A stretch of 64,000 bases of DNA from Escherichia coli (GTDB lineage: Bacteria > Pseudomonadota > Gammaproteobacteria > Enterobacterales > Enterobacteriaceae): assembly GCF_044647545.1 (NCBI RefSeq), contig NZ_CP172818.1; one strand, given 5' to 3'. A program made the position numbers and the translations under genes. Below are positions 5,407 to 9,451 of this stretch, piece by piece. The notes under the pieces were generated by a model. That model was not told where the DNA came from. It did no database searches and saw nothing but the letters and a program-made list of their open reading frames with translations. The number at the start of each line of letters is the position of its first letter. The stretch's first letter is position 1.

Positions 5407-5811
5407 CTAGATTAATGGTTTATTGTTTTCTACATCTTCAATATATAAAAGCGTATTATCAATGGCGTAGTAACTGCGTTTGTTATGATTAACATCAGTA
5501 ACCCACCGGAAAACGCCCGCGTCTGCCAGTGTTGAACAGTATTCCCGAAATGTAGATTTTCCGCAAATATGAAGCAATGCGGCCTCTTTTATTTTAGCAG
5601 GGTTCTTGGTCGTACTAACTTTTAACAGGTTCCTGGTTCCTCTTAATAACAAAACCGTGTCATCGTGAGTAATAATTCTGATGTTATCCGTAGCTAGATA
5701 ATAAATGTAATGTGCAATACGGTGATGTTTTAATTCTGAATAAAACCAGGAGAAGTTTTGCTCTTTTCTCACTTGCTCAAACATCTTTTGAAAAACAACG
5801 ACCTGATCCAT
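5407..5811 (-). CDS. ycgX: Uncharacterized protein YcgX
   Basis: 134-aa ORF at the K-12 ycgX position. Confidence 0.8.
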   Translation of the reverse strand: MDQVVVFQKMFEQVRKEQNFSWFYSELKHHRIAHYIYYLATDNIRIITHDDTVLLLRGTRNLLKVSTTKNPAKIKEAALLHICGKSTFREYCSTLADAGVFRWVTDVNHNKRSYYAIDNTLLYIEDVENNKPLI

Positions 5812-6031
5812 CAGGATAATAACCTCTTGTTAGTTGTGAGACTGCGTAGTGTGCACGATCGGTTTTACCACTTCAATCTGGTCTGTCCTTTGGCTGTGAT
5901 ATGTACAAAGTGTGAAAGGGGGATTACCTGAATTCTCCCGGTGAGCATTTTGTAATGGACCAGCTCCGGTACAAACGCTGTTGTGGGTTCAGATTATAAC
6001 ATTCTGTCTAAGGGGCGGGATAAAGGTGAAA

Positions 6032-6763
6032 TTAGGGGGCATGGAAGATGACTTTATAACCTTGCTCACCCCAGTGTTGTAAAAGTTCGTTTTGCCTTCT
6101 CGTTGGTGCCATGCCTGTCCAGACAATTAATGTTTGCGTCGGGAACAGTTCCGGGCGCGGCGATTCAATGGGATCAGCAAGAACAGAAATGTGCCATCCT
6201 GACAATGATAAACGCCATGCTTCCAGCCACAATCGTGCTCTCTCTTCAACATTCCACGCCATCAGAATGGCTTCTTTACCGGGCTTACGGCGCATTTCGA
6301 AAAGCGAGGCTGCTGCGTATTCAATTAATGCGCCGTCAAACATACTGCTCATAATGCGGGAGGTGTTGTGATCAAGCACGAGACGCTGGCGAACAGGAAG
6401 GTAAACATGATTAATCAATTGATCTACTGGGTACTCTCGGCCCAGTGAAATAATTCTCGCGCGTAGTTTGGCAGGATTAGCCATACGAAGAATTGACATC
6501 ATCTCTTCTTGCAGGCGGCTCCAGTCATCTTCCGTATCCTGGCTGGTGGTTTCCAGTAATGCTTTAACTTTGCCTACAGGGACGCCATTACTTATCCAAC
6601 GCTTGATCTCTTCGATGCGTTGTATGTCTTCTTCATCAAAGAGTCGGTGTCCGCCTTCACTGCGCTGTGGTTTTAACAAACCGTAGCGGCGTTGCCAGGC
6701 CCGGAGAGTGACAGGATTAATCCCGCAACGTTCAGCAACATCACCAATGCTGTAATAAGCCAC
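6032..6763 (-). CDS. bluR: MerR-family repressor BluR
   Basis: 243-aa ORF with N-terminal MerR HTH ([30 protein letters not shown]...). Confidence 0.9.
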
Positions 6764-6967
6764 AATTCCTCCTTGCGGTCACAAATCTCCGTCGCCTGTA
6801 CACGACCCAATAATACTTTGTACAATATACGCTAAAATTGTACAAAGTATAAATAAGATTTCAGCTAAATTGAATGAAACATTATTTTTAATGTGGATTA
6901 AATTTAAACATAACGTATTCATTTTCACGATGATTTTCAGAAATCATACGAAATAATGTGCTGGAAA

Positions 6968-8179
6968 TTATTTTTTCTCCGGCCACGCAACTGAAGGGAT
7001 ACCATTCAATTTAGCTTTCGCAAACAGATCTCCCTGAAACATCTCAATTCCTGCAGATTCAAGCCACATCCACTCTTCTGGTGTTGTCACACCCATAGCA
7101 GAGACTTGAATTTCAAGTGATGTACAGCATTTTATGATCGCTTGAATAATTGCCTGCCGTGGCCCGCTTTTATGAACATTGGTAATCAATTCCTGACTGA
7201 TTTTAATTCTGTCAGGCTGGAAGCGTGACAGGAGTAACAAACCGGCAAAACCTGCGCCAAAATGATCAATTGCTACACTGATACCGGCAGCCTTAAGCGA
7301 TTTAATCGCTTCTGCAAACTCATCAAACCGAGATATGACTTCACTTTCAGTAAATTCAACGATGATTTGTTCAGGCACCAGAGCATTGGCCTTTATTTCA
7401 TCAAGTAAAAAAGAGACTGCGTCAGGTTCGTTAACCAGGGTCATAGGTAATAGATTGATTGAAATCATTTTATCACCGAGCTCAAGTGCGTGTGCCATCG
7501 CGAATGCAAGCGCCTTACTTTTGAGATCCGCTGTATAGATTTCCCCGTCTTTACGCTGCCCAACCGCTATAGCTGATGGGCTATCTTCATTTTTTTGCAC
7601 AATGGCTTCAAAAGCGATTATCCGCCGCGATAAGGGATCGACAATAGGATGAAAGGCAAAGTGGTCGTTTATAGTTGGTGAAAGGGTACAGGAATCAAGT
7701 TCTTTATCAGATCCGTCAGCGATAAAAAGCCAGGAGTCTTCGGCAGGGATCTCGAAATAGGTTGCTTGTTCGGTTGCAAGGACAAAAGTACGAAAAAATT
7801 GTAGCGCTCTGTCATCATAAGTTAGCTGAAATTTTGATGTGCCTTTGTCGAATACGGCCTGTAAAACGTCATCTCGCTCGTGCAGGCGCAAATCAAATAA
7901 TTCCATTCCCGCTTTGTCAAAACGGCGAGCAGGCGCGTAATCGCACATCAGCTCAACAATATTATAGTGCCGTGGATCCTGGCATATAGCCCGATATATC
8001 ATTTTAACCTGTTCTTCCGGACCTTCCAGAAGCTGGAAAAAATGAGAACCATTAAACAGTAAGATCCCTGTTACGTCAGACAGCATGTTCCTGCGATTTG
8101 CTATCGAAACCATTTCTTCGATTTTTTTGACAGGTTCGTCGTCACGTATATGGCTACGATAAATAAGGGTGGTAAGCAT
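6968..8179 (-). CDS. bluF: Blue-light sensor BluF (BLUF + degenerate EAL)
   Basis: 403 aa from ATG at 8179 (MLTTLIYRSHIRDDEP...); ORF-track start at 8257 is an upstream extension. Confidence 0.9.
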   Translation of the reverse strand: MLTTLIYRSHIRDDEPVKKIEEMVSIANRRNMLSDVTGILLFNGSHFFQLLEGPEEQVKMIYRAICQDPRHYNIVELMCDYAPARRFDKAGMELFDLRLHERDDVLQAVFDKGTSKFQLTYDDRALQFFRTFVLATEQATYFEIPAEDSWLFIADGSDKELDSCTLSPTINDHFAFHPIVDPLSRRIIAFEAIVQKNEDSPSAIAVGQRKDGEIYTADLKSKALAFAMAHALELGDKMISINLLPMTLVNEPDAVSFLLDEIKANALVPEQIIVEFTESEVISRFDEFAEAIKSLKAAGISVAIDHFGAGFAGLLLLSRFQPDRIKISQELITNVHKSGPRQAIIQAIIKCCTSLEIQVSAMGVTTPEEWMWLESAGIEMFQGDLFAKAKLNGIPSVAWPEKK

Positions 8180-8416
8180 TAACTGTCCAGGGTAATGGGA
8201 GAGGCGAGAGTAAGACGGTAACAGACATATCTTCCGGTGTCTTTCTTTTAATACCAAAACATAACTGTTTCTTTACATTGATAAAAAATGGAAAAAGTTG
8301 AAGATGAGTTGGCGAAAATTTTTGTATAGGTTGTTATTTAAATGATGCAATATTTTTTATCATAACCTGTTGTTTTGTATGTATTAGCACTAAATGCAAA
8401 AAATTAATTTATCATT

Positions 8417-8438
8417 TTGTACACATATTTCGTACAAG
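8417..8438. promoter_or_regulatory. Candidate MerR-type (BluR) operator in ycgZ promoter
   Basis: Imperfect inverted repeat ttGTACAcatatttcgTACAAg about 60 bp upstream of ycgZ ATG. Confidence 0.3.
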
Positions 8439-8492
8439 TTTGCTATTGTTACCTCACTTAACATTGATTAACATTTTTAACAGAGGCGTAGC

Positions 8493-8729
8493 ATGCATCA
8501 AAATTCAGTGACTTTAGATTCTGCGGGAGCAATCACTCGTTACTTTGCAAAAGCTAACTTGCCTACTCAGCAGGAAACTCTCGGAGAAATTGTGACTGAG
8601 ATTTTGAAAGATGGACGTAATCTGAGTCGAAAGTCGCTTTGTGCCAAACTTCTAGGTCGACTGGAACAAGCGACAGGGGAAGAGGAACAGAAACATTATA
8701 ATGCACTAATTGGGTTGCTTTTTGAATAA
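8493..8729 (+). CDS. ycgZ: YcgZ
   Basis: 78-aa ORF, first gene of ycgZ-ymgA-ariR-ymgC cluster. Confidence 0.85.
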   Translation: MHQNSVTLDSAGAITRYFAKANLPTQQETLGEIVTEILKDGRNLSRKSLCAKLLGRLEQATGEEEQKHYNALIGLLFE

Positions 8730-8771
8730 TGCAACAGCCTGATTATTTAACAGGTTAGCTATGAAGTCGTT

Positions 8772-9044
8772 ATGAAGACATCTGATAATGAAAGTACAAA
8801 ATATGAAATTACTGGCCAGGCGGTGCTCCAGATACTGCGCATGAAGATAAATTTTTCGTTGCAGACTCTTATTAAGCAATTACTCGTAATGAAATCTGTT
8901 GAGGAAAATGCTTTCCGACGAGATTTAATTGACAGCATAATTCGTGATTTTAGTAACAGTGATACAGGAGGGCCAAACAGAAGAACAGCGATAACTGACA
9001 ATAAAAGTATTTTCAATGGTAAGAAAATAAACAGAATACATTAA
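8772..9044 (+). CDS. ymgA: YmgA
   Basis: 90-aa ORF. Confidence 0.85.
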   Translation: MKTSDNESTKYEITGQAVLQILRMKINFSLQTLIKQLLVMKSVEENAFRRDLIDSIIRDFSNSDTGGPNRRTAITDNKSIFNGKKINRIH

Positions 9045-9072
9045 AATTTCATAAGTAAGATGAGAGGTTACT

Positions 9073-9339
9073 ATGCTTGAAGATACTACTATTCATAATG
9101 CAATAGCTGATAAAGCGTTATCAAGTTACTTTCGCAGTTCGGGTAATTTGTTAGAAGAAGAGTCAGCTGTGTTAGGGCAGGCTGTCACCAATTTAATGCT
9201 TTCAGGCGATAATGTTAATAATAAAAATATTATCTTAAGTCTGATACACTCCCTGGAAACAACAAATGATATCCTCAAAGCTGATGTGATCAGAAAAACA
9301 CTGGAAATCGTGTTGCGATACACAGCGGATGATATGTGA
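9073..9339 (+). CDS. ariR: AriR (YmgB), acid-resistance/biofilm regulator
   Basis: 88-aa [23 protein letters not shown]... Confidence 0.85.
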
Positions 9340-9451
9340 CTTTTAATTATTAAGTATAAATTTATAGAAAACTCATTCATCTTATTTTTGTCTGTCGCTT
9401 TAGACTATACACAGCATAATTTTATTGGGTTAATATTTCTACGAGGCTGAC

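What the first reader, a model, noticed from the sequence alone, without database searches (positions are those of the whole stretch)
8258..8492. Divergent bluF/ycgZ control region with a MerR-type palindrome
The AT-rich spacer between bluF and ycgZ contains the imperfect palindrome ttGTACAcatatttcgTACAAg at 8417-8438, a plausible BluR operator at a MerR-type promoter. It is worth pinning down because BluR control of ycgZ-ymgA-ariR-ymgC is the regulatory core of this island.
Basis: inference. Interest (0 to 1): 0.25.

Follow-up and report, generated by a model that had tools for sequence, protein, structure and literature searches.

The report
Known BluR operator in ycgZ promoter

Summary
The window is E. 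coli. An inverted repeat of this kind is not unusual in the AT-rich spacer: 78% of shuffles contain one.

It is nevertheless the BluR operator published by Tschowri et al. 2012 (PMC3509220). They found a DNase I footprint on "TGTAC...GTACA / GTACA...GTACA" overlapping the -35 and the spacer of PycgZ. Their mutants at -39/-38/-37 and -24/-21 map to window 8417-8419 and 8432/8435. Those mutants lose BluR binding and derepress ycgZ.

In 21 of 23 bluR-bluF-ycgZ loci from about ten other genera, TGTACA-N7/8-TGTACA lies 66-85 nt upstream of ycgZ. None of 28 BLUF-EAL loci that lack bluR has one there.

Two corrections:
- bluF starts at 8179, not 8257, so the spacer is 8180-8492.
- The promoter is only loosely "MerR-type". 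The published spacer is 18 bp, the dyad centre is at -29, and BluR acts only as a repressor.

Side lead: the bluR promoter carries conserved TGTACA-N11-14-TGTACA boxes, which suggests autoregulation. I found no paper reporting this.

Novelty: already known. Interest: low.

The parts
8417..8437 (.). BluR operator: TTGTAC-N9-GTACAA, also readable as TGTACA(8418-8423)-N7-cGTACA(8431-8436). It spans -39 to -19 relative to +1 = 8456, with the dyad centre at 8427 (-29).
   Evidence: Sequence and inverted repeat. Published DNase I footprint with EMSA and lacZ mutants: PMC3509220. Mutant names C-39A/T-38G/G-37A and G-24A/C-21A map to 8417-8419 and 8432/8435. Conserved in 21 of 23 syntenic loci from other genera.
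8420..8425 (+). -35 hexamer of PycgZ (TACACA, 4 of 6). This is my inference from the published 18-bp spacing to the -10. The alternative TGTACA at 8418-8423 with a 20-bp spacer scores equally.
   Evidence: Spacer length of 18 bp is stated in PMC3509220. Hexamer enumeration. The figure that boxes the hexamers is not held, so the exact hexamer is inferred.
8441..8449 (+). Extended -10 element TGcTATTGT. TG is at -15/-14, C at -13 (a sigma-S feature), and TATTGT at -12 to -7.
   Evidence: PMC6900184 describes an extended -10 and sigma-38-specific bases at this promoter. The element is invariant in all E. coli strains sampled.
8456..8456 (+). ycgZ-ymgA-ariR-ymgC transcription start (+1), accurate to about 1 nt.
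   Evidence: Primer extension placed it 36 nt upstream of the ATG (PMC3509220). I fixed it at 8456 from the numbering of the operator mutants. This also puts the marbox centre at -62, as published.
8387..8401 (+). MarA-binding marbox GCACTAAATGCAAAA in forward orientation, spanning -69 to -55 (centre -62). MarA activates sigma-70-dependent transcription by a class I mechanism.
   Evidence: It matches the consensus GCAHWWWWTGYYAAA at 14 of 15 positions. Position and function come from PMC6900184. Coordinates.
8493..8729 (+). ycgZ, the first gene of the BluR-repressed operon. It is followed by ymgA (8772-9044), ariR (9073-9339) and ymgC (9452-9700).
   Evidence: Pfam family YmgB/AriR.
6968..8179 (-). 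bluF, a BLUF-EAL blue-light anti-repressor of BluR, transcribed divergently from ycgZ. The published TSS is 30 nt upstream of its ATG, at about 8209.
   Evidence: Annotation of an identical strain and of K-12. Pfam BLUF + EAL. TSS from PMC3509220.
6032..6763 (-). bluR, the MerR-family repressor that binds the operator.
   Evidence: Annotation. Pfam MerR_1 + MlrA_helical + MlrA_C.

Best explanation
The palindrome is the operator of BluR (YcgE), a MerR-family repressor and paralogue of MlrA, in the sigma-S/sigma-70 promoter of ycgZ-ymgA-ariR-ymgC.

BluR contacts two hexamers 13 bp apart centre to centre: TGTACA at -38 to -33 and cGTACA at -25 to -20. This covers the -35 hexamer and the upstream half of the 18-bp spacer. 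Binding bends the DNA and keeps RNA polymerase off the promoter.

In blue light and at low temperature, the BLUF-EAL protein BluF binds BluR and removes it from the DNA. The operon is then transcribed. Its small proteins act on the Rcs phosphorelay, which lowers curli and raises colanic acid. MarA bound at -62 adds a separate sigma-70-specific activation input.

Shown in the papers: the footprint, the loss of binding and of repression in operator mutants, the TSS, and anti-repression by BluF.
Shown here: the window site is the K-12 site apart from T for C at -39. The site is nearly invariant in E. coli. The same two-hexamer operator accompanies bluR and ycgZ in about ten other genera.
Inferred: steric occlusion of the -35 as the mode of repression, and that the T(-39) allele behaves like the K-12 allele.
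For: - Identity of locus and genes.
- The window differs from K-12 in the operator only at 8417.
- The supplement's mutant names place the mutated bases at window 8417-8419 and 8432/8435.
- The resulting geometry agrees independently with the marbox at -62 in PMC6900184.
- In E. coli, the 44-mer 8406-8449 is exact in 4414 (K-12 allele) plus 206 (window allele) of 4866 matching records. The surrounding spacer varies.
- Across genera, 21 of 23 loci with bluR + ycgZ have TGTACA-N7/8-TGTACA with at most 1 mismatch, 66-85 nt upstream of ycgZ. Only one further match, with N9, lies in a locus that lacks bluR, and it is not next to bluF; the other extra matches are in bluR-bearing loci, several of them upstream of bluR. 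469 kb were scanned in all. Hexamer columns are 19-20 of 20 invariant against unconserved flanks.
Against: - The inverted repeat alone is not statistically unusual in this AT-rich spacer.
- The right half-site in E. coli is degenerate (cGTACA).
- The window allele (T at -39) has not itself been tested.
- The 2009 paper showing BluF-dependent release was not available to read, so that step rests on its summary in the 2012 paper.
- The figure showing the exact footprint limits and the boxed -35 is not held.
- TGTACA matches the -35 consensus at 4 of 6 positions, so part of the conservation could reflect promoter function.
Confidence: 0.95

Rival explanations
1. BluR reads the site as two tandem 13-bp units (TGTACA-nn-TTT-nn, a direct repeat) and not as an inverted repeat. 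This would resemble the direct-repeat operators of the light-responsive CarH/LitR branch of the MerR family. The protein and function stay the same; only the recognition geometry differs.
For: - TGTACA is self-complementary, so the hexamers cannot tell the two readings apart.
- In the cross-genus alignment both hexamers are followed by the same nnTTT tract. T counts are 20/17/16 of 20 after the first hexamer and 19/19/18 of 20 after the second. The region upstream of the first hexamer is not the A-rich mirror image.
- The 2012 paper itself notes a 'repetitive motif GTACA...GTACA' overlapping the palindrome.
Against: - MerR-family proteins are typically dimers on dyad-symmetric sites (established knowledge; Brown et al. 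2003, as cited).
- The base before the first hexamer (T in 14 of 20) and the base after the second (A in 13 of 20) do mirror each other.
- The T-tract after the second hexamer may be conserved for promoter reasons, since it leads into the TG of the extended -10.
Confidence: 0.2
2. The conserved hexamers are core promoter elements (-35-like TGTACA or TACACA). On this view they are conserved because RNA polymerase needs them, and BluR binding is secondary.
For: TGTACA and TACACA each match TTGACA at 4 of 6 positions, and they sit at -38 to -31.
Against: - Two hexamers at a fixed 13-14 bp distance are conserved, not one.
- They occur only where bluR is present, in 21 of 23 loci against 0 of 28.
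- Mutating them raised ycgZ expression to the level of a bluR knockout rather than lowering it.
- The promoter has an extended -10, which lessens the need for a -35.
Confidence: 0.03
3. The paralogue MlrA, or another TGTACA-reading MerR/LitR-type protein, is a physiologically relevant binder of this site, alongside BluR or instead of it.
For: - BluR and MlrA differ in only four residues of the helix-turn-helix.
- Both recognise GTACA, and BluR binds the MlrA site at csgD.
- Pseudomonas class II LitR proteins also bind TGTACA-N12-TGTACA.
Against: - The spacing here is N7, against N12 at MlrA and LitR sites. That is half a helical turn different.
- A bluR knockout alone fully derepresses ycgZ.
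- I found no report of MlrA binding here.
Confidence: 0.05
4. The palindrome is a chance inverted repeat in AT-rich DNA, or a DNA/RNA hairpin, with no protein-binding role.
For: Comparable 6+6 inverted repeats occur in 78% of shuffled spacers.
Against: - Published footprint and mutagenesis.
- Conservation across genera.
- The site lies upstream of +1, so it is not in the ycgZ mRNA.
- The DNA hairpin is weak, at -2.9 kcal/mol with a 9-nt loop.
- There is no Rfam match.
Confidence: 0.01

Closest known systems
BluR (YcgE) operator of the E. coli K-12 ycgZ promoter (Tschowri, Lindenberg & Hengge 2012, Mol Microbiol 85:893; PMC3509220)
   Same: Same locus, same genes and same position relative to the TSS. 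The sequence from -38 to -7 is identical.
   Different: The window has T instead of C at -39 (8417). This lengthens each perfect arm from 5 to 6 bp and matches the cross-genus consensus TTGTACA. The allele occurs in about 4% of complete E. coli genomes: 206 of 4866 records.
MlrA box at the csgD promoter (AAAGTTGTACA-N12-TGCACAATTTT; Ogasawara et al. 2010, as quoted in PMC3509220) and the class II LitR boxes of Pseudomonas (TGTACA-N12-TGTACA; PMC9758184)
   Same: The half-site is the same hexamer, TGTACA. The regulators belong to the same MerR subfamily, and BluR carries the MlrA helical and C-terminal domains. BluR can bind the csgD site weakly.
   Different: Spacing between hexamers is N7 (N8 in three genera) rather than N12. 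BluR represses, whereas MlrA activates.
Canonical MerR-type promoters (merT, zntA, copA, soxS; Brown et al. 2003)
   Same: A MerR-family helix-turn-helix protein binds a roughly 20-bp dyad inside a promoter with a longer-than-optimal spacer (18 bp) and bends the DNA.
   Different: The spacer is 18 bp, not 19-20. The dyad centre is at -29, over the -35 and the upstream spacer, rather than mid-spacer. There is no known ligand and no activation. Induction works by protein-protein anti-repression through BluF, which the authors liken to CarS-CarA.

Membership tests
Published BluR operator of PycgZ | Sequence matches the footprinted K-12 site (TGTAC...GTACA / GTACA...GTACA) | tested here: met
   The window and K-12 are identical from 8418 to 8492, apart from one base at 8453 downstream of the -10. 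The only difference in the site is T/C at 8417.
Published BluR operator of PycgZ | Position overlaps the -35 and the spacer of the ycgZ promoter, and the mutated bases -39/-38/-37 and -24/-21 fall within it | tested here: met
   The mutant primer names map to 8417-8419 and 8432/8435. The marbox at -62 is an independent check.
Published BluR operator of PycgZ | Genomic context: divergent from bluF-bluR and upstream of ycgZ-ymgA-ariR-ymgC | tested here: met
Published BluR operator of PycgZ | BluR protein physically binds this DNA | not testable with these tools
   Shown for K-12 DNA by footprint and EMSA (PMC3509220). Not shown for the T(-39) allele.
   21 of 23 syntenic loci from Citrobacter, Enterobacter, Atlantibacter, Pectobacterium, Pantoea, Erwinia, Phytobacter, Kosakonia, Pseudenterobacter and others carry the motif. 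None of 28 loci without bluR does.
Canonical MerR-type (activatable) promoter | A -35/-10 spacer of 19-20 bp | tested here: inconclusive
   The published spacing is 18 bp. My enumeration gives TACACA at 18 bp and TGTACA at 20 bp with equal hexamer scores.
Canonical MerR-type (activatable) promoter | Operator dyad centred within the spacer between -35 and -10 | tested here: not met
   The dyad centre is at -29, and the left half-site covers -38 to -33, on or upstream of the -35. [quoted passage not shown]
Canonical MerR-type (activatable) promoter | The regulator switches from repressor to activator on binding an effector | not testable with these tools
   The literature reports BluR as a repressor only, relieved by BluF.
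MlrA / class II LitR box | TGTACA hexamer half-sites | tested here: met
   Consensus sequences are quoted.
MlrA / class II LitR box | 12-nt spacing between hexamers | tested here: not met
   The spacing is N7 in E. coli and 18 other loci, and N8 in 3.

The most novel reading that the evidence does not exclude
The BluR circuit may have more cis-elements than the single footprinted operator.

(a) The bluR promoter carries TGTACA hexamers at 6839-6844, 6819-6824 and 6797-6802. Relative to the published bluR TSS these lie at about -27 to -22, -7 to -2 and +16 to +21. A TGTACA-N11-14-TGTACA pair at the same place is conserved in nearly all 24 bluR-bearing loci from other genera. This predicts negative autoregulation by BluR, or cross-regulation by MlrA. 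I found neither reported in the papers I could search.

(b) Outside the E. coli/Citrobacter freundii clade, PycgZ has a third hexamer, TGTATA, exactly 13 nt after the second one. This suggests an ancestral three-hexamer operator of which E. coli keeps a reduced version.
Probability: 0.35. Interest if true: 0.35.

Novelty: already known. Interest (0 to 1): 0.1.

Why it matters
BluR control of ycgZ-ymgA-ariR-ymgC is the output switch of the E. coli blue-light and cold pathway, which tunes curli, colanic acid and biofilm formation through Rcs. Identifying its operator explains how light reaches transcription. That question was answered experimentally in 2012, so this finding adds nothing new for E. 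coli.

This check adds three things:
- The operator is ancestral and conserved across at least ten enterobacterial genera as TGTACA-N7-TGTACA.
- E. coli carries a degenerate right half-site.
- The window strain has a minority allele (T at -39) that restores one base of symmetry.

The conserved TGTACA boxes at the bluR promoter are a testable lead for an undescribed feedback loop.

Tried and rejected
- The standard sigma-70 scan with 16-18 bp spacers and a strict -10 missed PycgZ and reported only a weak site inside ycgZ. The real promoter has a TATTGT -10 with an extended TG, so I enumerated hexamers by hand.
- Hairpin or cruciform reading: the DNA fold is only -2.9 kcal/mol with a 9-nt loop, and the site is upstream of +1. 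Rejected.
- Structured RNA: no Rfam family matches at gathering score in 5800-10100.
- Repeat statistics as evidence: comparable inverted repeats are common in shuffles. Rejected as support.
- Reading Tschowri et al. 2009 (Genes Dev), for BluF-dependent release and possible data on bluR autoregulation: not held under either DOI or PMC id.
- Literature search for BluR autoregulation or BluR gSELEX/ChIP: nothing relevant found. SrsR is reported to bind upstream of bluR, which is unrelated to the TGTACA boxes.
- The BluF homologue search returned mostly Citrobacter proteins in its top 120. I therefore used a small alignment for the genome scan. The scan reached many genera but did not return Klebsiella or E. 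coli itself.

Full report
**What is in the sequence.** The window is Escherichia coli. Positions 8100-8600 are 100% identical to strain FDAARGOS_497 and match 4926 of 5426 complete E. coli genomes at 93-100% identity.

RefSeq annotation of that strain and of K-12 MG1655, projected on the window, gives these genes:
- bluR, 6032-6763 (-)
- bluF, 6968-8179 (-)
- ycgZ, 8493-8729 (+)
- ymgA, 8772-9044
- ariR, 9073-9339
- ymgC, 9452-9700
- pdeG, 10032-11555

Pfam confirms that BluR is MerR_1 + MlrA_helical + MlrA_C, that BluF is BLUF + EAL, and that YcgZ and AriR belong to the YmgB family.

The annotated bluF ATG is at 8179. The divergent control region is therefore 8180-8492: 313 bp, 31% G+C, and the same length as in K-12.

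**The observation.** The string ttGTACAcatatttcgTACAAg is at 8417-8438, as reported. The repeat finder gives arms TTGTAC (8417-8422) and GTACAA (8432-8437), perfectly complementary, with 9 nt between them. The site can equally be written TGTACA-N7-cGTACA (8418-8436).

Such a repeat is not unusual on its own. At least one perfect 6+6 inverted repeat with a 4-14 nt gap turned up in 78% of 2000 dinucleotide-preserving shuffles of the spacer. With at least two G/C per arm the figure is 32%.

**What is published.** Tschowri, Lindenberg and Hengge (2012; PMC3509220) reported the following.
- They mapped the 5' ends of bluR, bluF and ycgZ at 54, 30 and 36 nt upstream of the respective start codons.
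- They reported an 18-bp -35/-10 spacing at PycgZ.
- They footprinted purified, tag-free BluR on the ycgZ promoter.
- The protected site contains "a repetitive motif (GTACA...GTACA)" overlapping "a palindromic motif (TGTAC...GTACA)". It covers the -35 region and part of the spacer and shows two DNase-hypersensitive sites.
- Point mutations in the two half-sites reduced or abolished BluR binding in EMSA. [quoted passage not shown]

The supplement names the mutants C-39A/T-38G, C-39A/T-38G/G-37A and G-24A/C-21A, with primers reading ATCATT**AG**GTACACATATTTC. On the window sequence this fixes +1 at 8456.

Kettles et al. (2019; PMC6900184) describe an extended -10, sigma-38-specific bases, a distal UP half-site and a forward marbox centred 62 bp upstream of the start. 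With +1 = 8456, the marbox GCACTAAATGCAAAA (8387-8401) spans -69 to -55, centre -62. This checks the numbering independently.

**Promoter geometry.**

| Element | Sequence | Position relative to +1 = 8456 |
|---|---|---|
| Left hexamer | TGTACA | -38 to -33 |
| Right hexamer | cGTACA | -25 to -20 |
| Dyad centre | - | -29 |
| Extended -10 | TGcTATTGT | -15 to -7 |

An 18-bp spacer gives TACACA (8420-8425) as the -35. TGTACA with a 20-bp spacer scores the same. The figure that boxes the hexamers is not held, so the exact -35 is my inference.

The promoter therefore resembles a MerR-type promoter only loosely. The authors call the 18-bp spacing "consistent with" MerR-like control. Against this, the dyad is not centred in the spacer, BluR is reported to act only as a repressor, and induction works through the anti-repressor BluF rather than through ligand-driven DNA distortion.

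**Variation within E. coli.** The window and K-12 differ at 21 of 313 spacer positions. Only one of these touches the site: 8417 is T in the window and C in K-12. Five further strains spread across the identity range all have C at 8417 and an otherwise invariant stretch from 8418 through the -10.

For the 44-mer 8406-8449, the K-12 allele is exact in 4414 of 4866 matching records. The window allele is exact in 206.

The window allele lengthens the perfect arms from 5 to 6 bp. It also matches the consensus of other genera, where T precedes the first hexamer in 14 of 20 sites. Position -39 was mutated in the paper only to A and only together with -38, so the effect of T versus C is untested.

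A scan of one genome per species, using a BluF alignment, returned 52 BLUF-EAL loci. tblastn with the window proteins divided them as follows:
- 23 loci have the full arrangement, ycgZ-like operon divergent from bluF-bluR. They come from several Citrobacter species, a "Raoultella" MAG, Pectobacterium, three Enterobacter lineages, Atlantibacter, Pantoea coffeiphila, Erwinia JUb26, Phytobacter, Kosakonia, Pseudenterobacter and strain LSJC7.
- One is a truncated locus that has bluR.
- 28 loci have no bluR.

TGTACA-N7-TGTACA (18 loci) or the N8 form (3 loci), with at most one mismatch in 12, lies 66-85 nt upstream of the ycgZ start in 21 of the 23 syntenic loci. The other two keep one exact hexamer and a degenerate partner. 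No locus without bluR has such a motif near bluF. Over the 469 kb scanned, the only other match in a locus that lacks bluR is a single N9 match in L041, not next to bluF; the remaining extra matches are all in bluR-bearing loci, several of them just upstream of bluR.

In the anchored alignment the hexamer columns are 19-20 of 20 invariant, while the flanks are not conserved. The lineages are not phylogenetically independent, but they span at least ten genera. The palindrome is therefore conserved, and the ancestral form is two perfect TGTACA hexamers. E. coli and the C. freundii group have a degenerate first base in the right hexamer.

**A nuance on recognition.** TGTACA is self-complementary, so the hexamers cannot distinguish inverted from tandem recognition. 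Both hexamers are followed by a conserved nnTTT tract, and the region upstream of the first hexamer is not its A-rich mirror. This fits a tandem 13-bp unit as well as a dyad does, and it echoes the paper's remark on a direct repeat. I keep this as a minority rival on geometry only.

**Mechanism.** BluR bound at -39 to -19 covers the -35 and the upstream spacer and bends the DNA. This blocks RNA polymerase from using a promoter that is otherwise driven by sigma-S, and by sigma-70 when MarA is bound at -62. Light-activated BluF binds BluR and releases it from the DNA. The operon products then act through RcsC to lower curli and raise colanic acid.

The binding, the operator mutants, the TSS and the MarA input are published experiments. 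Steric occlusion as the mode of repression, and equivalence of the T(-39) allele, are my inferences.

**Rejected alternatives.**
- A hairpin or cruciform is weak (-2.9 kcal/mol) and lies upstream of +1.
- No Rfam family matches.
- A pure core-promoter role conflicts with the derepression seen in operator mutants and with the dependence of the motif on bluR.
- MlrA and LitR boxes share the hexamer but use N12 spacing.

**Side observations.** The bluF-bluR spacer holds three of the window's fifteen TGTACA hexamers within 204 bp, at 6839-6844, 6819-6824 and 6797-6802. With the published bluR start about 54 nt upstream of the GTG at 6763, they lie at about -27 to -22, -7 to -2 and +16 to +21.

A pair of hexamers 11-14 nt apart (most often 13) sits at the equivalent place upstream of bluR in nearly every bluR-bearing locus from other genera. 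This predicts BluR autoregulation or MlrA cross-talk. I found no report of either, although the 2009 paper could not be read.

Most non-E. coli ycgZ-bluF spacers also carry a lone TGTACA 89-116 bp upstream of the operator. E. coli has TGTATA at the equivalent spot, 8323-8328. Outside the E. coli/C. freundii clade, a third hexamer TGTATA follows the second at exactly 13 nt and overlaps a likely -10, TATAAC.

**Verdict.** The feature is already known from direct experiments on an essentially identical sequence. Interest is low. What this check adds is cross-genus conservation, a minority allele at -39, and a testable lead at the bluR promoter.

Noticed in passing
window 6797-6844 (- strand), bluR promoter; equivalent regions of L003-L024, L045, L048, L049, L052: Three TGTACA hexamers lie upstream of bluR. 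Two are the 8-bp palindrome TTGTACAA, separated by 14 nt, and a third lies 16 nt further on. They sit at about -27 to -22, -7 to -2 and +16 to +21 of the published bluR TSS. A TGTACA-N11-14-TGTACA pair is conserved at the same place in nearly all bluR loci of other genera. The spacing is like that of MlrA and LitR boxes. This suggests BluR autoregulation or MlrA cross-regulation, and I found no report of either.
   Followed up: partly
window 8323-8328; L003-L011, L014-L016, L020, L023, L024, L045, L049, L052 at about -170 to -199 from the ycgZ ATG: A lone TGTACA (often TTGTACAA) lies 89-116 bp upstream of the operator in 18 of 23 syntenic spacers. E. coli has TGTATA at the equivalent position. 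It is too far from either mapped TSS to be a core promoter element. It may be an auxiliary half-site.
   Followed up: partly
L008-L023 and L052, 13 nt downstream of the second operator hexamer; no equivalent in window 8450-8455: Outside the E. coli/Citrobacter freundii clade, a third hexamer TGTATA follows the second TGTACA at exactly N13 and overlaps a likely -10, TATAAC. E. coli and the C. freundii group lack it and use a -10 that lies 8 nt further upstream.
   Followed up: partly
L057 (E. coli OkiPb01684, NZ_AP042519.1), equivalent to window about 8412: An IS1A element is inserted a few bases upstream of the BluR operator. It replaces the marbox, the UP half-site and bluF, but leaves the operator, the -10 and ycgZ intact.
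   Followed up: no
window 8257 versus 8179: The longest ORF for bluF runs 26 codons upstream of the annotated ATG to a TTG at 8257.
   Followed up: yes
search results: In 12 E. coli records the ycgZ promoter region is on a replicon labelled as a plasmid. About 500 of 5426 genomes have no match to the region at all, so the locus is not universal in E. coli.
   Followed up: no
L033-L037, L039, L040, L046 (Rahnella) and L029 (Siccibacter): These BLUF-EAL loci have ycgZ/ariR-like small genes nearby but no bluR and no TGTACA-N7-TGTACA motif. Here the small-protein operon is linked to the photoreceptor without the MerR repressor.
   Followed up: no
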